In this document: positions 2,961-32,760 of the stretch, in pieces | How the letters are laid out: each line of letters starts with the position of its first letter | Position numbering within the stretch: position 1 is the first letter of the stretch | From: a phage | DNA: 47,147 nt | Sequence record: PZ787336.1 | Reading direction: 5' to 3' (one strand) | Notes under the pieces: model-generated | What the model saw: the letters and a program-made list of their open reading frames with translations, nothing else | The model's database searches: none | Told to the model about the DNA's origin: nothing | Program-made: the position numbers and the translations under genes

Positions 2961-3676
2961 TATGTATTCCTCGCTTTTTTCGCTTTGCGTTCAGCCAGTG
3001 CTTTCATGCGCTCGCGGTCTGCTTTGGCCTGATCGTACTCTGCCGCGCGCTCTTCTTTCGTTAACCCTTTCGGCTCTGGGTATTTATTCTTAATCATCAT
3101 CTGAAACTCTGTCATAGACAGGTTTTCTGCCTCATCGCGCGTCATGTCGAAATGCGTGCGTGCTGAGATGATATATTGCGACGCATGAAACTCGTTTGTG
3201 GTTTTTTTGCCCCGCTCCTCCAGACGCTCAGGAACTTTGAGTGGAGACTTGCCAATGATGCCGTGCTGCATCAGATTGCGCGCAATAATAATAATGTCGC
3301 TCACTGGCATGATGCCAGGCACGTATCGCACGCCGCGAGGTGTTGGTTTCCATCCACCAATCAGTACGGAAATATCATCTTCACAGCATGACTGCATAAC
3401 GATATAGGCAGCACTCAGTACGTGCCGACCATACACGGGCTTACTGATGGTCTTCATGACCTGCATCTGTGCGCCAAATGGCAGGTATTCGACGTGCTGC
3501 AACGGCGCAACATAATCAATGCCGTTGAGCTTAGCGTATACCTCGACGATTTCTTTTGGTGTGCCGATTTCATTCATGGCACGGAATGATGGCTTGAAGA
3601 AAAAACTCCTGTCAGAAAGCGAGATGCGCATCTCCCCGATTTCTGTTAGTGGCGTGCGATTGCTCATGTTTTGCAT
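2960..3676 (-). CDS. putative tail assembly chaperone
   Basis: 238 aa ORF directly upstream of the tape measure gene, Lys/Glu-rich C-terminus; position-based. Confidence 0.4.
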   Translation of the reverse strand: MQNMSNRTPLTEIGEMRISLSDRSFFFKPSFRAMNEIGTPKEIVEVYAKLNGIDYVAPLQHVEYLPFGAQMQVMKTISKPVYGRHVLSAAYIVMQSCCEDDISVLIGGWKPTPRGVRYVPGIMPVSDIIIIARNLMQHGIIGKSPLKVPERLEERGKKTTNEFHASQYIISARTHFDMTRDEAENLSMTEFQMMIKNKYPEPKGLTKEERAAEYDQAKADRERMKALAERKAKKARNT

Positions 3677-28919: not shown

Positions 28920-29363
28920 TCACGCATTCTGCTGCTCCAGTAATTTCTCCAGTCGCTCAAGTCGCGCTGCGAGTTCGGTGATTTCCTGAATATCAAGGCC
29001 AGACTTGATAATGTCAGCCATCATCTTGCCGATGTCAGCAGGCACGACGCCAGTGGAGACACCCTTGATGATTGCATCCATTTTCTGAACCGGAGTTCCG
29101 TCAGCAGGGAAGTCAAACTCCACAGGAGGAGCTACAGGCTTAGGAATTGGGTTGAGCCGCAGGAATATCTCTCGAAGCATACCAGTTGCCTGAGCGTCTT
29201 CGCATGTCATGGCCCTATTGATGTAATACGTGACGAATTCAATCTCATTCATCGGTGTATTTGCAGCACGAAGCGCCTCAAGCAGCACTGTGCGATAACT
29301 CTTACCGCGCGGAGGCGGTTGATTTGTAGAGGAAAACTTGTGTTTTGGATTTGGATTCGCCAT
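28920..29363 (-). CDS. terminase small subunit
   Basis: 147 aa ORF immediately upstream of the large subunit, C-terminal coiled-coil-like LERLEKLLEQQ; position-based. Confidence 0.6.
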   Translation of the reverse strand: MANPNPKHKFSSTNQPPPRGKSYRTVLLEALRAANTPMNEIEFVTYYINRAMTCEDAQATGMLREIFLRLNPIPKPVAPPVEFDFPADGTPVQKMDAIIKGVSTGVVPADIGKMMADIIKSGLDIQEITELAARLERLEKLLEQQNA

Positions 29364-29421
29364 GTCTTTTTGTGTTCTTTGAGTAACTCACATACGCTAA
29401 TTTTAACACATAGACGTAGAC

Positions 29422-29447
29422 AAAAAAGAACCCGCACAAGGCGGGTT
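29422..29447 (-). terminator. rho-independent terminator after the HNH gene
   Basis: minus strand AACCCGCCttgtGCGGGTT followed by cttttttg. Confidence 0.5.
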
Positions 29448-29543
29448 AAAGGTTGGGTGATGATATAAGTGAAAGCAATGGTGGTTATGCGTTTATTGTA
29501 CACCATCATTATCGCGCTTGCCAACAGAGCATCATAAACACAT

Positions 29544-30011
29544 TTATTTTTTTTCGTTCTCTTCCTGGTATTTCTCAAACCAGAAAACAACTGGTCTCTC
29601 CACCACGGCGATAAGACCGAAACGCTCTGCAGTGCGGAAATTCATGCTGCTTTTGCGCCCACGAGCAACCTGAAGAGATACCTGCTTCCTGAACATTTCC
29701 AGGGAATAGGAAGTTTTCATCAGATTGCAGGGGGCGCACGCAGGGTAAAGGTTTTCCAGTCGCTCGGCTTCTGGTCGATATAGCTCACCGGTTGCCTTCA
29801 GCTTGAAAATCCCTTTCGCCGCTGCCTTCATGCACTGCTCAGATTTACGTAGCACTGGTTCAACATGGTCTGCATGCCAACCTTTCTCGGGTAGCTCACA
29901 CCCACAATAAGCACAGCGACCACCGAACTTCATGCGTAGCTCTTCGCGTTGTTTTTTTGTTAGCTTCATTTCATCTACCATTTGTATGATTTTTTGTGTA
30001 GCACCATGCAT
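29544..30011 (-). CDS. HNH endonuclease (terminase-associated)
   Basis: CAYCGCEL...WHADHVEPV...CAPCN HNH motif; located directly upstream of the terminase small subunit; the track ORF extends to 30068. Confidence 0.75.
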   Translation of the reverse strand: MHGATQKIIQMVDEMKLTKKQREELRMKFGGRCAYCGCELPEKGWHADHVEPVLRKSEQCMKAAAKGIFKLKATGELYRPEAERLENLYPACAPCNLMKTSYSLEMFRKQVSLQVARGRKSSMNFRTAERFGLIAVVERPVVFWFEKYQEENEKK

Positions 30012-30124
30012 TTTCATTTCGCGTCTGCACATGAACGACTTCAAGCGCGTCAGGGAATGTCTTTGCAACCTTCTCGATGAAATCGTCTAATTCGTGCTGC
30101 TTTGCGAGTTGCCAGACTTTCTGT

Positions 30125-30304
30125 TTAGTGGTTTGCATTAGCATAATCCCTCGTTGAGCACATGTACTTAATGTCGTGCACACCATTGTCAGGAGCAACC
30201 TCAATGTAACTACCTATCTGTACCATCATGTAGTGACATGTCTTCATGCTGTTCCAGTAGCGTTCCCACATGTTCTGCATTGCGTCGCTGATATCGTTAA
30301 ACAT
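30125..30304 (-). CDS. hypothetical protein
   Basis: ATG 30304 overlaps the stop of the upstream small ORF; the track ORF extends to 30355. Confidence 0.35.
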   Translation of the reverse strand: MFNDISDAMQNMWERYWNSMKTCHYMMVQIGSYIEVAPDNGVHDIKYMCSTRDYANANH

Positions 30305-30404
30305 AATGCACAACTCCTGCAATGGCTGCTGCCAGTGCCAGCACATAAACAGCAAGGAAAATTTTAGCGCCAGTGGTGTATCGGCGTCGTTGCTGCCTGG
30401 TCAT
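30297..30404 (-). CDS. hypothetical small membrane protein (35 aa)
   Basis: GGAG RBS; Arg-rich N-terminus then hydrophobic helix. Confidence 0.3.
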   Translation of the reverse strand: MTRQQRRRYTTGAKIFLAVYVLALAAAIAGVVHYV

Positions 30405-30416
30405 AAAAATCTCCTG

Positions 30417-30641
30417 TTAGCTATGTTTAAGAGGCCATAATGCAAACTTCTGCCTAATGGAATTCTCTTTTCTCTTGTGAAGATGAGACTCCTCCATTAC
30501 AACCTCTGATGCTTCATCAAGAAGGTTTGCAAGTTCCATTGGAGTTTTTCTGCTAAGTGCCTCCATGTCCATAATGACTGAGGACAACTCAGCTAGCTTA
30601 TAAGAAATATCACGAAGATATTCGCTTCTTGTTATCATCAA
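30417..30641 (-). CDS. hypothetical protein
   Basis: 74 aa ORF. Confidence 0.4.
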   Translation of the reverse strand: MMITRSEYLRDISYKLAELSSVIMDMEALSRKTPMELANLLDEASEVVMEESHLHKRKENSIRQKFALWPLKHS

Positions 30642-30701
30642 TACATCTCCACTAAAGCGTGCGCCGCATAGAGCGCACTGGTAATTAATATGAACGTGTA
30701 G

Positions 30702-30917
30702 CTATTCACTTTTAGACAGGCTTTCGAATTGATGGTTGGTGGTGTCATTCTCCACCTCAGCAAGCATATCATCAAGAATCTTCCTTGACTCATCAACGAG
30801 TCTGTTAAATCCAGCATCATTAATGACAGGAACTGGCACAAATCCGATGCCTTCTGATGCAAGCGAATTAGCCATTTCAAGAGACTGCCTCAACTCAACT
30901 GGCGATGCTTTGTTCAT
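30702..30917 (-). CDS. hypothetical protein
   Basis: 71 aa; start overlaps the stop of 30914..31309. Confidence 0.4.
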   Translation of the reverse strand: MNKASPVELRQSLEMANSLASEGIGFVPVPVINDAGFNRLVDESRKILDDMLAEVENDTTNHQFESLSKSE

Positions 30918-31309
30918 TGTTTTGCTCCTTGTTCTTCCAGAAAAATACGCATAGCCTCAAGCATCTCTTCTGTGTCATACGGTGACAACTTGTCACGCAG
31001 GATGTGTTCAATGCTGTTAATGAACTTGCGGATTGCTTTGCGTTCAATTTCAGCCAGGAAAGCGTCGGTGGCTGGGGTTTCAGTGAAGTTGTCCTCCCAA
31101 CCGTAGTACTCCTGACGACAGAAGTTATTAAATTCCTTCTCCGACTGTTTAAGCGCCGCATTCTCCGCTGCCAGCTCCGCGCATTTAGTTTCGAGTGCTG
31201 CATAGTCCTTGTATTTAACGAACTGCCCGAGCCTCAGCTCTTCTCCATGCTTAAAATTAAGAATCTCTTTTTCGCCCATAACCAATGTGTATATCTTCAC
31301 TTCACTCAT
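30914..31309 (-). CDS. hypothetical protein
   Basis: 131 aa ORF, coupled to neighbours. Confidence 0.45.
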   Translation of the reverse strand: MSEVKIYTLVMGEKEILNFKHGEELRLGQFVKYKDYAALETKCAELAAENAALKQSEKEFNNFCRQEYYGWEDNFTETPATDAFLAEIERKAIRKFINSIEHILRDKLSPYDTEEMLEAMRIFLEEQGAKQ

Positions 31310-31539
31310 ACCATAACCCCCATTATTTCTTCGTAATAGCCATCTTCTTCAAACTCAATCTTTGCGATTGTGAGTGCATCCTCATCTGTGATGTCAATCG
31401 CTTTGAATTTGCACTTTGCCAGCACGATGCAGCCAGACATGATTAACCACTTATTCCACCAGCGCACTCGCTTGATTGTTTTGATTGCATACATTTTGTT
31501 CTGAACAAACCAGAACTCGTATGTTTTCACTTTTGCCAT
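31306..31539 (-). CDS. hypothetical protein
   Basis: 77 aa ORF. Confidence 0.4.
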   Translation of the reverse strand: MAKVKTYEFWFVQNKMYAIKTIKRVRWWNKWLIMSGCIVLAKCKFKAIDITDEDALTIAKIEFEEDGYYEEIMGVMV

Positions 31540-31575
31540 ATCATCACCATTAAAAATAAAAGCGCTGAATCGATG

Positions 31576-31758
31576 TCAGAACACGACAATCAGCTCATCC
31601 ATTACTCTTCGCTTTCCTTCACCATTAAACACGCGCACAACGCGATTTACGCGGATAGATTCCATTGCATTGCGTGCCTGCTTGCTCATGAAGTTCTGCG
31701 CGCCAACGTGACCGAGTTCCTGCTCCAGTTTCTCGCGACGATAGATAGTCTTTGCCAT
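31576..31758 (-). CDS. hypothetical protein
   Basis: 60 aa ORF. Confidence 0.4.
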   Translation of the reverse strand: MAKTIYRREKLEQELGHVGAQNFMSKQARNAMESIRVNRVVRVFNGEGKRRVMDELIVVF

Positions 31759-31938
31759 TTATTGCACCTCGCAAGAGTTAATGATTGACTTAATGCGACG
31801 GCGATACAGCTGCATGATGTGTTCGTTATGCCAGTTGCTCATCTTATTACTCCTTATACCCTGATTTGGAAACTGCCACTGCGATAATGATGAATGCCAC
31901 GGTAACAAGACTGGCAATAAGTTCGAATGCTGCGCCTG

Positions 31939-32085
31939 TCATTTGCTTAACCCATACGCTGAGATTAAAGCCTGCATTGCTGCGTTCCAGAATGCTTCTG
32001 CAGGAATGCTTTTGTTTGTGCGCTCAACTGCAATGCGTGCCATTGCCTGTGCATCTTCAAATTCTTCACGGTCTTTGATTTTCAT
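31939..32085 (-). CDS. hypothetical small protein, first gene of the leftward early operon
   Basis: about 48 aa, starts about 30 nt downstream of the minus promoter at 32116-32144. Confidence 0.3.
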   Translation of the reverse strand: MKIKDREEFEDAQAMARIAVERTNKSIPAEAFWNAAMQALISAYGLSK

Positions 32086-32115
32086 CTCTTCACTCTCGTT
32101 TGTTCCGATGAGTTC

Positions 32116-32144
32116 AATCTACATCAATGATGATTCTACGTCAA
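32116..32144 (-). promoter_or_regulatory. sigma70-like promoter TTGACG-N17-TAGATT on minus strand
   Basis: plus cgtcaa 32139-32144 and aatcta 32116-32121; adjacent to the iteron region. Confidence 0.5.
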
Positions 32145-32159
32145 CATAAATGCGTTAAA

Positions 32160-32475
32160 AACGTGCTCGTGGGGTAAATTTTTGCCCGTGGGGCAGGTCG
32201 TGGGGAAGGTGGTATGCCCCACGGGAAACCCTTGCGCCATGCGGCTTTTAACATGTTTGGGTAAGTGGGGCAGATTTCATACCCATCCCCTTATAAATAT
32301 ATTCAAATAATCCATTTGTTAATATTATGTTAATTACTATCTATAATATGAATAATAATATTACCCATTACCCCAAATAATAATAATTTTATTATATTAC
32401 ATATACTTAGAGTAAAAGTTCGTGGGGAAGGTGATGTTCCCCACGGCTGCCCCACGTTACCCACGCGAGTCGTAT
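32160..32475. other. putative origin of replication: CGTGGGG/CCCCACG iterons flanking an AT-rich stretch
   Basis: at least 8 copies of the 7-mer in both orientations on either side of a roughly 130-bp AT-rich segment, immediately upstream of the replication protein gene. Confidence 0.55.
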
Positions 32476-32520
32476 TTGATGTTGCATGAATCAATACTTA
32501 TGATATGATTCAATCATAAT

Positions 32521-32760
32521 TTGTTGCTGTTGGAGGCTTTTGTGAAACTTGATAAGTACGGCAAAAAGAATGCAGCTCTTTCTGGGTTGTCGGCGGTTTC
32601 AATAGGTGAGACTGTGATGATTAATTCGAAGAGGTTTGGAGGAATTGCAAACCTGAGGAACGCATTAAACTACTTCATGCGCAGGAATGAAGGCATGAAA
32701 TTCTCAACAAAGGTTGGGTATCCTGACAAAGACATGGTTTACGTAAAAAGGATTTCATGA
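32521..32760 (+). CDS. hypothetical protein preceding the replication protein
   Basis: track ORF; probably starts at an internal GTG after a GGAGG RBS. Confidence 0.4.
   Translation: MLLLEAFVKLDKYGKKNAALSGLSAVSIGETVMINSKRFGGIANLRNALNYFMRRNEGMKFSTKVGYPDKDMVYVKRIS

What the first reader, a model, noticed from the sequence alone, without database searches (positions are those of the whole stretch)
29971..32085. Leftward early operon of about a dozen small ORFs of unknown function next to the origin
From the promoter at 32116-32144 a run of tightly coupled small ORFs (27 to 131 aa, several with overlapping stop/start codons, two with single transmembrane helices) leads into the HNH and terminase genes. 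None has a recognisable domain. The first genes expressed by lytic phages are enriched for host-takeover and anti-defence proteins.
Basis: inference. Interest (0 to 1): 0.45.

Follow-up and report, generated by a model that had tools for sequence, protein, structure and literature searches.

The report
Phage early operon carrying Stp homologue
This is a real but ordinary phage operon of eleven tiny exchangeable "accessory" genes, and it is not featureless: one gene is a relative of the T4 peptide Stp, which disarms type IC restriction enzymes, and another is a relative of lambda Orf63.

Summary
The ORF run is real. Eleven small genes (27-131 aa) plus an HNH gene lie on the minus strand, 94.6% coding. 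Most have Shine-Dalgarno-like sequences, six junctions overlap, and two products are single-helix membrane peptides. Every gene with orthologues shows purifying selection (pN/pS 0.13-0.45). The promoter hexamers at 32144-32116 are conserved in relatives while the spacer varies.

First, recognisable domains exist. o03 (31842-31759) is a T4 Stp homologue (PF08133, above gathering). o07 is 51% identical to lambda Orf63 (PDB 8DSB). o04 is DUF7540 and o11 is DUF7334. Second, the operon does not simply run into the terminase genes. A conserved intrinsic terminator (29447-29420) precedes terS, and the HNH gene is a sporadic insertion inside the 3' end of o11.

The window is a ~47 kb siphovirus close to Escherichia phage HC6 (Caminolopintovirus group). 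The operon is its cassette-built accessory region. Stp is present, replaced or absent at one precise slot. The o06-o07 module shares 95-98% identical DNA with lambdoid prophages. Only o04 and o11 persist in the more distant clade.

The most likely function is early host-takeover and anti-defence, with Stp blocking type IC restriction. There are no expression data. Verdict: new member of a known kind, modest interest.

The parts
32116..32144 (-). Leftward promoter P_L, TTGACG-17 nt-TAGATT
   Evidence: The consensus scan gives 9/12. Both hexamers are invariant with a variable spacer in 10 of the 11 close relatives aligned (L014 has TAGTTT). The distant clade has TTGACG-17-TATAGT at the same place.
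31939..32085 (-). o01, 48 aa, first gene of the operon, function unknown
   Evidence: phrog_2180 at 8e-23. pN/pS 0.30. Replaced by other genes in some relatives.
31847..31942 (-). o02, 31-aa single-helix membrane peptide, ATGA overlap with o01
   Evidence: phrog_35977 at 5.5e-23. Hydropathy peak 2.64. pN/pS 0.16.
31759..31842 (-). o03, 27-aa Stp homologue (predicted type IC restriction inhibitor and PrrC trigger), [27 protein letters not shown]
   Evidence: PF08133 at 34.2 bits against a cutoff of 25. phrog_6763 at 8.2e-12. 12/19 identical to T4 Stp over residues 1-19. AAGGAG 8 nt upstream. pN/pS 0.23. Presence/absence cassette in relatives.
31576..31758 (-). o04, 60 aa, DUF7540; core gene of the phage group, function unknown
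31306..31539 (-). o05, 77 aa, function unknown
   Evidence: phrog_10786 at 1.4e-43. pN/pS 0.17. An orthologue was screened as UDP0029. No PDB relative.
30914..31309 (-). o06, 131 aa, mosaic protein of the Ead/Ea22-like assemblage (weak bZIP-like match at residues 34-64)
   Evidence: phrog_614 at 5.8e-28, phrog_492 and phrog_368. Its middle and C-terminal DNA is 95-98% identical to lambdoid prophages. No pairwise similarity to lambda Ea22.
30702..30917 (-). o07, 71 aa, lambda Orf63 homologue (DUF1382)
   Evidence: PF07131 at 84.7 bits. PDB 8DSB at E 2.6e-10. 51% identity to lambda Orf63 over 61 residues, E 7e-19.
30417..30638 (-). o08, 73 aa, orphan in a hypervariable slot
   Evidence: No PHROG, Pfam or NCBIfam family. 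Found only in HC6 and ST1UNAM. pN/pS 0.25 from one comparison. The exhaustive HMMER search gave only a spurious repeat hit.
30297..30404 (-). o09, 35-aa single-helix membrane peptide with a basic N-terminus
   Evidence: phrog_9340 at 8.2e-17. Hydropathy peak 2.42 and pI 11.0. pN/pS 0.45.
30125..30304 (-). o10, 59 aa, function unknown
   Evidence: phrog_5407 at 9.8e-24. pN/pS 0.19. No PDB relative.
29971..30144 (-). o11, 57 aa, DUF7334; core gene, last gene of the ancestral operon, with its 3' end rewritten by the HNH insertion
   Evidence: PF24022 at 113.4 bits. Kept in both clades. Alignment. The AF2 model is poor, pLDDT 57.
29544..29981 (-). HNH endonuclease gene, a sporadic insertion (free-standing homing-type)
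   Evidence: PF01844 at 25.7 bits against a cutoff of 21.4. phrog_2118 at 2.2e-58. Present only in the window, HC6 and ST1UNAM among the relatives' loci sampled.
29493..29531 (-). Remnant of the ancestral o11 3' end, displaced downstream of the HNH insertion
   Evidence: It translates to CSVGKRDNDGVQ*, matching the consensus o11 tail CYAGKRDNDGVQ. The DNA alignment shows the junctions.
29420..29447 (-). Intrinsic terminator ending the operon: AACCCGC-CTTGT-GCGGGTT followed by CTTTTTTG
   Evidence: Terminator scan. The fold is -10.7 kcal/mol. Stem and T-run are conserved in both clades, with CTTGT or TTCG loops.
32168..32456 (.). Upstream control/origin-like region: seven CCCCACG boxes, two 25-bp palindromes CGTGGGG-N11-CCCCACG (32199-32223 and 32421-32445), and an AT-rich core
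   Evidence: 7 of the 8 genomic boxes lie here, against 2.6 expected genome-wide. The palindrome pattern occurs in 0 of 100 shuffles. Conserved in the close clade.

Best explanation
The stretch is one leftward transcription unit. Host sigma-70 RNA polymerase would start at P_L (32144-32116), beside the divergent replication-gene promoter and an iteron-like box cluster. It would read eleven translationally coupled small genes and stop at a conserved intrinsic terminator (29447-29420) just before terS.

The unit is the phage's accessory (host-takeover/anti-defence) region. It is built from cassettes that are swapped, lost or gained at short conserved junctions.

The one cassette whose mechanism can be named is o03, a 27-aa homologue of T4 Stp. 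By analogy, it would bind the type IC restriction-modification complex (EcoprrI/EcoR124I type) and block cleavage of the unmodified incoming genome. The genome carries type IC target sites at chance frequency. In hosts whose type IC enzyme is guarded by PrrC, the same binding would release the tRNA-Lys anticodon nuclease. This phage has no Pnk or Rnl1 to repair the damage, so such hosts should abort the infection. That trade-off would explain why the Stp cassette is present, replaced or absent among near-identical relatives.

o07 is a lambda Orf63 homologue, and o06 is a mosaic of lambdoid prophage accessory genes recently acquired by recombination. o04 (DUF7540) and o11 (DUF7334) are the only genes kept across the wider phage group, so they are probably needed by the phage itself. 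The HNH gene is a selfish insertion into the 3' end of o11.

Shown here: gene reality, family memberships, mosaicism, and conservation of promoter and terminator. Inferred: early timing, Stp activity, and the trade-off.
For: - Anatomy.
- Coding selection.
- Promoter footprint.
- Terminator conserved in both clades.
- Stp membership: PF08133 at 34.2 bits against a cutoff of 25; phrog_6763 at 8e-12; tblastn hits the stp genes of hundreds of T-even phages at 63% identity over residues 1-19; T4 Stp sequence verified. The functional part of Stp is the N-proximal 18 residues, and loss-of-function mutations cluster at residues 4-14. Removing 8 C-terminal codons reduces both activities only moderately. 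Stp inhibits type IC but not type IA enzymes (PMC3014915).
- Cassette polymorphism at the Stp slot.
- No Pnk or Rnl1: T4 PseT best E 0.96 and RnlA best E 1.3 in the window, while the same PseT query finds homologues in two Drexlerviridae loci.
- Type IC sites at chance frequency, 10, 15 and 22 sites. The recognition sequences come from my own knowledge.
- Orf63 homology.
- Prophage-derived o06 DNA.
- Core versus accessory pattern.
- HNH insertion.
- Independent choice of o04 and o05 orthologues as accessory genes.
- No integrase or repressor annotated in the relative STGO-35-1.
Against: - There is no transcript or proteome evidence, so 'early' is positional inference. P_L is only a 9/12 consensus match.
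- Only one of the eleven genes has a mechanism-level homologue. The function of Orf63 is itself unknown.
- The window Stp differs from T4 Stp at 7 of the first 19 residues and has an unrelated C-terminus. Neither activity nor specificity has been tested.
- Stp is dispensable: it is absent from 5 of the 11 distinct close-clade relatives compared.
- The prevalence of type IC and PrrC systems in this phage's hosts was not examined.
- No PADLOC, PDB or NCBIfam signal for the other genes.
- The o05 orthologue UDP0029 has no noted phenotype in the published screen.
Confidence: 0.7

Rival explanations
1. Part of the operon serves superinfection exclusion or general host-physiology modulation rather than counter-defence. 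The two membrane peptides (o02, o09) and o04 would protect the infected cell against other phages or change its growth state.
For: In the Silas et al. screen log, the o04 orthologue UDP0079 (57 of 60 residues identical to o04, as read from the two sequences) repeatedly 'enhances both uninfected and infected'. It also 'looks like an SE hit', and a 'massive SE hit' in ECOR21 with T2, across many hosts and phages. Small membrane peptides in early regions are classic exclusion factors (own knowledge, for example T4 Imm). In T4, stp sits next to the membrane protein gene ac.
Against: The notes are labelled preliminary, and the gene is not discussed in that paper's text. Enrichment in uninfected cultures too suggests a construct or growth artefact. 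o04 is a core gene with a nearly invariant N-terminal 24 residues, which is unusual for an exclusion moron. PADLOC gives no hit.
Confidence: 0.2
2. The promoter-distal genes (o11 and HNH) belong functionally to the DNA-packaging module. This would resemble HK97-type phages, where an HNH endonuclease works with terminase. On this view the operon really does lead into terS/terL as one unit.
For: o11 lies immediately upstream of terS in every relative, in both clades. The HNH gene is adjacent to terS/terL. HNH-terminase cooperation is established in HK97-like cos phages (own knowledge).
Against: The HNH gene is present in only 3 genomes of the group and is inserted inside the o11 3' end, leaving a remnant. 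A conserved intrinsic terminator separates o11/HNH from terS, and an extended -10-like element follows it in every terS allele. terS alleles are swapped independently of o11.
Confidence: 0.12
3. o04 (DUF7540) is a small DNA-binding regulator that recognises the CCCCACG boxes. It would control the divergent early promoters or the origin, so the operon would be partly autoregulatory rather than host-directed.
Confidence: 0.08
4. The small ORFs are chance reading frames or decaying remnants with no function.
For: Several are very short (27-35 aa). o08 has no family anywhere. Annotators of related genomes miss or mis-call some of them.
Against: 94.6% coding density with Shine-Dalgarno-like motifs and coupled starts. 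pN/pS of 0.13-0.45 for all ten ORFs that could be tested. Family matches for ten of the eleven.
Confidence: 0.02

Closest known systems
T4 Stp (gene stp; Pfam PF08133, anticodon nuclease activator family)
   Same: A peptide of 26-27 aa. The N-terminal motif MSN-HNEH-MQ-YR is conserved, 12 of the first 19 residues are identical, and the profile score is above the Pfam gathering threshold. Both lie in runs of small genes (for T4), which in T4 are early or delayed-early by own knowledge and PMC3014915.
   Different: It sits in a ~47 kb siphovirus rather than a T-even myovirus. The C-terminal third is unrelated ([12 protein letters not shown] versus [10 protein letters not shown]). The T4 partners Pnk and Rnl1 are absent. 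It is a presence/absence cassette among close relatives. Its activity is untested.
Lambda exo-xis region genes (orf63/DUF1382, ea22) and the P22 ea genes
   Same: o07 is 51% identical to lambda Orf63 and matches its solved structure 8DSB. Lambda Orf63 also sits in a block of small non-essential genes transcribed from an early leftward promoter (PMC10869804). Relatives carry an 'EaE protein' in the same slot. o06 shares near-identical DNA with lambdoid prophage accessory genes.
   Different: The host genome appears to be a virulent phage, whereas the Orf63 paper calls the family unique to temperate phages. o06 has no detectable similarity to lambda Ea22 itself. The gene order and neighbours differ from lambda.
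Phage 'accessory regions' as defined by Silas et al. (bioRxiv 10.1101/2023.04.06.535777)
   Same: A block of variable small genes lies between conserved anchors. Orthologues of o04 and o05 from the same operon of Shigella phage DS8 were chosen there as accessory genes UDP0079 and UDP0029.
   Different: That study did not report a function for either gene. The Stp homologue in DS8 is unannotated, and that study's Stp control was the T4 gene.
T7 class I early genes (Ocr, gp0.3)
   Same: The working model is the same: a sigma-70 promoter drives small genes, including a type I restriction inhibitor (own knowledge).
   Different: There is no sequence relationship. Ocr is a DNA mimic acting on type I and III enzymes, whereas Stp is a short peptide specific to type IC (PMC3014915). 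Whether this operon enters the cell first is unknown.
Free-standing HNH homing endonucleases of phages (for example T4 mobE, I-TevIII)
   Same: It has the HNH motif and a sporadic distribution. It is inserted into a conserved gene with the target's 3' end left as a remnant.
   Different: Cleavage specificity and mobility are untested. It matches only the C-terminal part (positions 160-276 of 301) of the PHROG 2118 profile.

Membership tests
Stp / anticodon nuclease activator family (PF08133) | Free-standing peptide of about 26-29 residues | tested here: met
   27 codons from ATG to TAA at 31842-31759, with AAGGAG 8 nt upstream.
Stp / anticodon nuclease activator family (PF08133) | Profile match above the curated threshold | tested here: met
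   PF08133 at 34.2 bits against a gathering score of 25, E 2.3e-8. phrog_6763 at E 8.2e-12. No NCBIfam hit.
Stp / anticodon nuclease activator family (PF08133) | Conservation of the N-proximal 18 residues, especially 4-14 where loss-of-function mutations cluster | tested here: met
   T4 is [19 protein letters not shown] and the window is [19 protein letters not shown]. 12 of 19 are identical, and 8 of 11 within residues 4-14, the rest being F>W, V>I and F>L. The functional region is taken from PMC3014915.
Stp / anticodon nuclease activator family (PF08133) | Inhibits type IC restriction (EcoprrI, EcoR124I) and activates latent PrrC | not testable with these tools
   This needs restriction-alleviation and tRNA-Lys cleavage assays.
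T4-type Stp/PrrC/tRNA-repair circuit | The phage also encodes polynucleotide kinase-phosphatase and RNA ligase 1 to repair tRNA-Lys | tested here: not met
   tblastn of T4 PseT and RnlA against the window gives best E 0.96 and 1.3. As a positive control, PseT finds homologues in the Lg3 and SP-126 loci at 6e-8 and 1e-6.
Lambda Orf63 / DUF1382 (PF07131) | Profile match and full-length similarity to lambda Orf63 | tested here: met
   PF07131 at 84.7 bits against a cutoff of 27. 51% identity over 61 residues, E 7e-19. PDB 8DSB at E 2.6e-10.
Lambda Orf63 / DUF1382 (PF07131) | [quoted passage not shown] | not tested
The phenotype needs experiments (PMC10869804).
Ead/Ea22-like proteins | Detectable similarity to lambda Ea22 | tested here: not met
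   BLASTP of o06 against lambda Ea22 gives best E 26. phmmer found no PDB relative at E <= 0.1, although a lambda Ea22 CTD structure has been published (PMC10834534).
Ead/Ea22-like proteins | Membership of the mosaic assemblage annotated as Ead/Ea22-like (central coiled coil, variable ends) | tested here: inconclusive
   phrog_614, 492 and 368 match, but all are 'unknown function'. There is a weak bZIP-like match at residues 34-64. A relative's gene is annotated Ead/Ea22-like. In APEC O1 the matching DNA covers hypothetical genes interleaved with ead/Ea22-like ones.
Sigma-70 early operon | Host-type promoter upstream and intrinsic terminator downstream, both conserved | tested here: met
   Promoter. 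Terminator.
Sigma-70 early operon | Transcribed in the first minutes of infection | not testable with these tools
   No transcriptome of this phage group was found.
Free-standing HNH homing endonuclease | HNH motif, sporadic distribution, and insertion that interrupts a conserved sequence | tested here: met
   PF01844 at 25.7 bits against a cutoff of 21.4. phrog_2118 at 2.2e-58. Present in 3 genomes of the group only. The o11 tail remnant CSVGKRDNDGVQ* lies downstream of it.
HK97-type terminase-associated HNH | Conserved, obligatory partner of terminase in all members of the phage group | tested here: not met
   Absent from every other relative's locus sampled, including phages with the same terS allele, for example L008.

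The most novel reading that the evidence does not exclude
Two readings remain open.

(1) DUF7540 (o04) is the invariant core gene next to the Stp slot. It may be a new broadly acting host-modulating or exclusion factor. Its 57/60-identical (95%) orthologue repeatedly raised barcode abundance in uninfected and infected cultures, and it looked like a superinfection-exclusion hit against T2, T6, P1 and T3 in several wild E. coli strains, in the raw notes of a published screen.

(2) In siphoviruses with unmodified DNA and no tRNA repair, Stp would act in its primary role as an anti-restriction peptide. The present/replaced/absent polymorphism at its slot would then be the footprint of selection by PrrC-type guards.
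Probability: 0.25. Interest if true: 0.55.

Novelty: new member of a known kind. Interest (0 to 1): 0.3.

Why it matters
- It corrects the annotation. A known anti-restriction peptide gene lies unannotated in HC6 and in most of the related records listed. The same is true of the T1-like (Drexlerviridae) phages examined, which are used or proposed for biocontrol.
- It gives a concrete, cheap test of Stp function outside T-even phages. In T4 the role of Stp is odd, because T4 DNA is already protected by modification.
- A siphovirus that carries Stp without Pnk or Rnl1 would be a natural probe for PrrC-type guard systems.
- The cassette slot and the two core DUF genes are defined targets for anti-defence and host-takeover screens.
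- Otherwise this is the expected kind of accessory region.

Tried and rejected
I used tblastn against the phage collection instead.
- PADLOC gave no hit for any of the ten operon proteins scanned; o03 (Stp) was not included.
- NCBIfam gave nothing above noise.
- PDB sequence searches gave nothing for o04, o05, o06, o10 or o11.
- Rfam gave only a sub-threshold Trp_leader match that merely covers the terminator hairpin.
- The AF2 model of o11 was poor (pLDDT 57), so no fold search was run on it.
- The afdb50 fold library was unavailable.
- The BFVD fold search for o04 found only its own family.
- The exhaustive HMMER search for o08 returned one spurious tandem-repeat protein.
- I considered that the promoter-like site at 29524-29495 plus the terminator might form a lambda pR'/tR'-like late antitermination unit. 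I rejected this because the '-10' is the conserved last codons of ancestral o11 (GVQ/DVQ-stop) and the '-35' is also o11 coding sequence.
- I considered that o06 carries a Lar-like restriction-alleviation domain (phrog_3592, E 0.0017). I rejected this as too weak a match; by my own reading of the sequence it also lacks cysteine pairs of the kind expected in a Lar-type zinc-binding site (own knowledge).
- The literature search found no paper on Stp outside T-even phages and no transcriptome for this phage group.


Full report
IDENTITY OF THE WINDOW

Megablast of 29500-32600 finds 192 phage records. The best are Escherichia phage HC6, phage 6947 and HC8A, at 97% identity over 83% of the query. 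Next come Salmonella phages ST1UNAM and STGO-35-1 (genus Caminolopintovirus) and the seszw phages. The fully annotated relative STGO-35-1 is a 47.5 kb siphovirus. It has terminase, portal, capsid, tail, lysis, DUF3987 helicase, primase, exonuclease/annealing and SSB genes, interspersed with islands of small genes. No integrase or repressor is annotated. The window (47,147 bp) is therefore essentially a whole genome of this group.

CHECK OF THE OBSERVATION

On the minus strand between 32085 and 29971 there are eleven ATG-initiated ORFs:
- o01, 48 aa
- o02, 31 aa
- o03, 27 aa
- o04, 60 aa
- o05, 77 aa
- o06, 131 aa
- o07, 71 aa
- o08, 73 aa
- o09, 35 aa
- o10, 59 aa
- o11, 57 aa

An HNH gene follows (29981-29544), then terS (29363-28920) and terL (28818-27355).

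Three junctions are ATGA overlaps, three more overlap by 8, 20 and 11 nt, and most starts have AGGAG/GAGG-type motifs upstream. Only o02 and o09 have a 19-residue Kyte-Doolittle peak above 2.4, so 'two single transmembrane helices' is right.

These are genes, not chance frames. Ten of the eleven match PHROG or Pfam families. In comparisons with orthologues from 33 related loci, every ORF that has gap-free orthologues (all but o06) shows an excess of synonymous change. pN/pS is 0.13-0.45, including 0.16, 0.23 and 0.45 for the 31-, 27- and 35-aa genes. These sums are window-versus-relative pairs and are not phylogenetically independent.

PROMOTER AND END OF THE OPERON

The scan as a whole is not enriched over shuffles. 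An alignment of the region from eleven close relatives shows both hexamers invariant while the spacer varies at several positions; one relative has TAGTTT. Two members of the more distant clade have TTGACG-17-TATAGT at the same place. That is the footprint expected of a working promoter.

At the other end, a hairpin AACCCGC-CTTGT-GCGGGTT followed by CTTTTTTG lies at 29447-29420, between the HNH stop and the terS start. Its stem and T-run are conserved in both clades, with the loop either CTTGT or TTCG. About 12 nt after the T-run, every terS allele is preceded by an extended -10-like element TGnTAnnAT. In the window this is TGTTAAAAT at 29408-29400.

The operon is therefore physically contiguous with terS/terL but most likely a separate transcription unit. 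This corrects 'leads into the ... terminase genes'.

WHAT THE GENES ARE

The statement 'none has a recognisable domain' does not hold.

o03 ([27 protein letters not shown]) is a Stp homologue.
- It matches Pfam PF08133, the anticodon nuclease activator (Stp) family, at 34.2 bits against a gathering score of 25. [quoted passage not shown]
- tblastn of the peptide against 50,697 phage records finds 793 records. These include the annotated stp genes of T-even phages at 63% identity over residues 1-19.
- T4 Stp read from NC_000866 is [26 protein letters not shown]. That gives 12 of 19 identical residues. Eight of eleven are identical within residues 4-14, and the other three are conservative changes.
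- According to the T4 review PMC3014915, the N-proximal 18 residues carry the function. Loss-of-function mutations cluster at residues 4-14, and removing 8 C-terminal codons reduces both activities only moderately. Stp inhibits the type IC enzymes EcoprrI and EcoR124I but not type IA enzymes. By acting on EcoprrI it unmasks the associated anticodon nuclease PrrC, and T4 then repairs tRNA-Lys with Pnk and Rnl1.
- The divergent C-terminus of o03 is therefore compatible with retained function.

o07 is a lambda Orf63 homologue. It matches DUF1382 at 84.7 bits and the NMR structure 8DSB at E 2.6e-10. It is 51% identical to lambda Orf63 over 61 residues. Orf63 is a dimeric, 'pro-lytic' exo-xis-region protein whose molecular target is unknown (PMC10869804).

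o04 is DUF7540 and o11 is DUF7334.

o06 matches PHROGs 614, 492 and 368. A relative's counterpart is annotated Ead/Ea22-like. It has no pairwise similarity to lambda Ea22 itself (E 26), so I leave that membership open.

o01, o02, o05, o09 and o10 belong to PHROGs of unknown function.

o08 has no family at all. An exhaustive HMMER search returned only a spurious repeat protein.

COMPARATIVE ANATOMY

tblastn of all operon proteins against 33 loci gives the following picture. The loci comprise three GenBank relatives plus 29 IMG/VR loci anchored on the helicase.
- In the close clade (helicase at least 98% identical), o01, o02, o04, o05, o09, o10 and o11 are usually kept.
- o08 and the HNH gene occur only in the window, HC6 and ST1UNAM.
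- The o06-o07 module is replaced by other genes, for example 'EaE protein' in HC6 and ST1UNAM.
- In the distant clade (helicase 86-88% identical), only o04 and o11 survive, at about 50-55% identity.
- Homologues of o04 and o11 in a 5.8-billion-protein collection sit mainly on phage-sized contigs where the contig is long enough to judge. This means they are restricted to this phage group.

The slot between o02 and o04 is a clean cassette site:
- Stp alone in the window, HC6, STGO-35-1, DS8, C1 and L010.
- Stp plus an acidic 52-aa gene in ST1UNAM.
- The 52-aa gene alone in L008 and L009.
- Nothing, a gap of 6-9 nt, in L011, L013 and L014.
- In all cases the slot is bounded by the same short junction sequences.

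The middle and 3' parts of o06 are 95-98% identical at the DNA level to lambdoid prophages and P1-like plasmids in 223 of 5,426 complete E. coli genomes, and to Stx-converting phages. No record holds the whole o06-o07 module. The operon is thus a recombination hotspot that exchanges genes with temperate phages.

THE HNH GENE

In relatives without the HNH gene, o11 ends ...CYAGKRDNDGVQ-stop and the terminator follows directly. In the window, homology to those relatives breaks after ...GCATGGTGCTA. It resumes about 0.5 kb later at TGGCAAGCGCGATAATGATGGTGTACAATAA, which translates to CSVGKRDNDGVQ* (29531-29493). The inserted segment gives o11 a new tail (TKNHTNGR) and carries the HNH ORF, whose ATG overlaps the new o11 stop.

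With its sporadic distribution, this identifies a free-standing homing-type endonuclease. It is not a terminase cofactor of the HK97 kind.

HOW IT MOST LIKELY WORKS

On injection, host RNA polymerase would use P_L, and the eleven genes would be translated as a coupled set. This step is inferred.

The step with a named mechanism is o03. The genome shows no avoidance of type IC targets. GAA-N6-RTCG, CCA-N7-RTGC and TCA-N7-RTTC occur 10, 15 and 22 times, against 12, 17 and 17 expected. The recognition sequences come from my own knowledge. No DNA hypermodification genes are annotated in the relative. An unmodified genome entering a type IC host should therefore be cut unless the enzyme is blocked, which is what Stp does in T4.

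The window has no homologue of T4 PseT (best E 0.96) or RnlA (best E 1.3). The same PseT query detects phosphatase-domain homologues in two T1-like phages that also carry Stp-like peptides. On a prr+ host this phage should therefore trigger PrrC and be unable to repair the damage. I propose, as inference, that this cost-benefit balance underlies the present/replaced/absent polymorphism of the Stp cassette.

For the other genes I can only commit to the class: host-directed accessory functions, with o04 and o11 probably needed by the phage itself because they alone are conserved across the group.

LEADS ON o04

Orthologues of o04 and o05 from the same operon of Shigella phage DS8 were synthesised as UDP0079 and UDP0029 in the accessory-gene screen of Silas et al.. 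The o04 orthologue UDP0079 matches o04 at 57 of 60 residues, as read from the sequences. The 'preliminary notes' in their experimental log say repeatedly that UDP79 'enhances both U and I'. They also say it 'looks like an SE hit', once a 'massive SE hit', in MG1655 and several ECOR strains with lambda, T2, T3, T4, T6 and P1. The gene is not discussed in the paper.

This is suggestive of an effect on host physiology or phage sensitivity. It could equally be a construct artefact.

SURROUNDINGS

Seven of the eight CCCCACG boxes in the genome lie at 32168-32456. Four are just upstream of P_L and three just upstream of a rightward promoter-like site (32476-32504). They include two 25-bp palindromes CGTGGGG-N11-CCCCACG and flank an AT-rich core. 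The boxes are conserved in the close clade, and the cumulative GC-skew minimum is at about 32 kb. An origin flanked by divergent early promoters is a reasonable reading of 'next to the origin', but the boxes could instead be operator sites.

COMPARISON WITH WHAT IS KNOWN, AND NOVELTY

The region works like other early accessory blocks: the T4 ndd-stp-ac neighbourhood, the lambda exo-xis region, the P22 ea genes, and T7 class I. It contains bona fide members of two described families, Stp and Orf63.

Stp homologues outside T-even phages are occasionally labelled by annotation pipelines (ST1UNAM and STGO-35-1). They are usually not called as genes, and I found no paper about them.

Minor new points are:
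- the siphoviral Stp subtype, shared with Drexlerviridae, where it reads [26 protein letters not shown]
- its occurrence without tRNA repair genes
- an Orf63 homologue in an apparently virulent phage

Overall this is a new member of a known kind. It is useful for annotation and offers a cheap experimental test, but it would not surprise a specialist.

Noticed in passing
window 32168-32456: Seven of the eight genomic CCCCACG boxes lie here. They include two 25-bp palindromes CGTGGGG-N11-CCCCACG at 32199-32223 and 32421-32445. The boxes flank an AT-rich core between the divergent leftward and rightward promoters, and the arrangement is conserved in close relatives. It could be origin iterons or operator sites.
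   Followed up: partly
window 29493-29981: The HNH gene is inserted inside the 3' end of o11. The ancestral o11 tail survives downstream as CSVGKRDNDGVQ* at 29531-29493. The insertion is found only in the window, HC6 and ST1UNAM.
   Followed up: yes
window 29400-29408: An extended -10-like element (TGTTAAAAT) lies about 12 nt after the terminator T-run. It is conserved as TGnTAnnAT upstream of all three terS alleles in relatives, so it is a candidate terS/terL promoter.
   Followed up: partly
L001 (ST1UNAM), L008, L009: slot between the o02 and o04 orthologues: An acidic 52-aa gene (MSNKPIQPTEEMIEAGI...YQAHTEK) occupies the Stp slot, either with Stp or instead of it. It has only weak PHROG matches (phrog_9004 at 1e-5). 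It may be an alternative counter-defence cassette.
   Followed up: partly
L001:3292-3471 (ST1UNAM): The annotated 59-aa 'anticodon nuclease activator family protein' fuses the N-terminus of the o02 membrane peptide, in another frame, with Stp. The real Stp start is the internal ATG. In HC6, DS8 and many other relatives the Stp gene is not annotated at all.
   Followed up: yes
L035 (Tunavirus Lg3) 3001-3072; L036 (Tlsvirus FSL SP-126) 3001-3072: Unannotated 26-aa Stp-like peptides occur in T1-like Drexlerviridae. A homologue of the T4 PseT phosphatase domain lies 2.2 kb (Lg3) and 0.6 kb (SP-126) downstream, at E 6e-8 and 1e-6. This suggests an Stp-Pnk linkage outside T-even phages.
   Followed up: partly
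window 31576-31758 (o04) and the Silas et al. supplement: The screen log repeatedly notes that the o04 orthologue UDP79 'enhances both uninfected and infected' and 'looks like an SE hit' in many host-phage pairs. The phenotype was never followed up in the paper.
   Followed up: partly
window 28920-29363 (terS) compared with loci L001-L031: terS occurs as at least three alleles among the relatives, seen as three distinct 5' ends. Protein identity to the window's terS is either 91-100% or only about 46-55%. Both classes occur among phages whose helicase is 98-100% identical, so the packaging specificity module is also swapped.
   Followed up: no
window 30702-30917 (o07): This is a lambda Orf63 homologue in a phage group with no annotated integrase or repressor. 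The Orf63 structure paper states that the family is unique to temperate phages.
   Followed up: partly
whole window: ARAGORN finds no tRNA gene, whereas the relative STGO-35-1 is annotated with a tRNA-Met.
   Followed up: no
window 30639-30701: The 63-nt gap between o07 and o08 contains a GC-rich inverted repeat, GTGCGC-TCTATGCG-GCGCAC, at a module junction (read from the sequence). It was not reported by the terminator scan and has no Rfam match.
   Followed up: no
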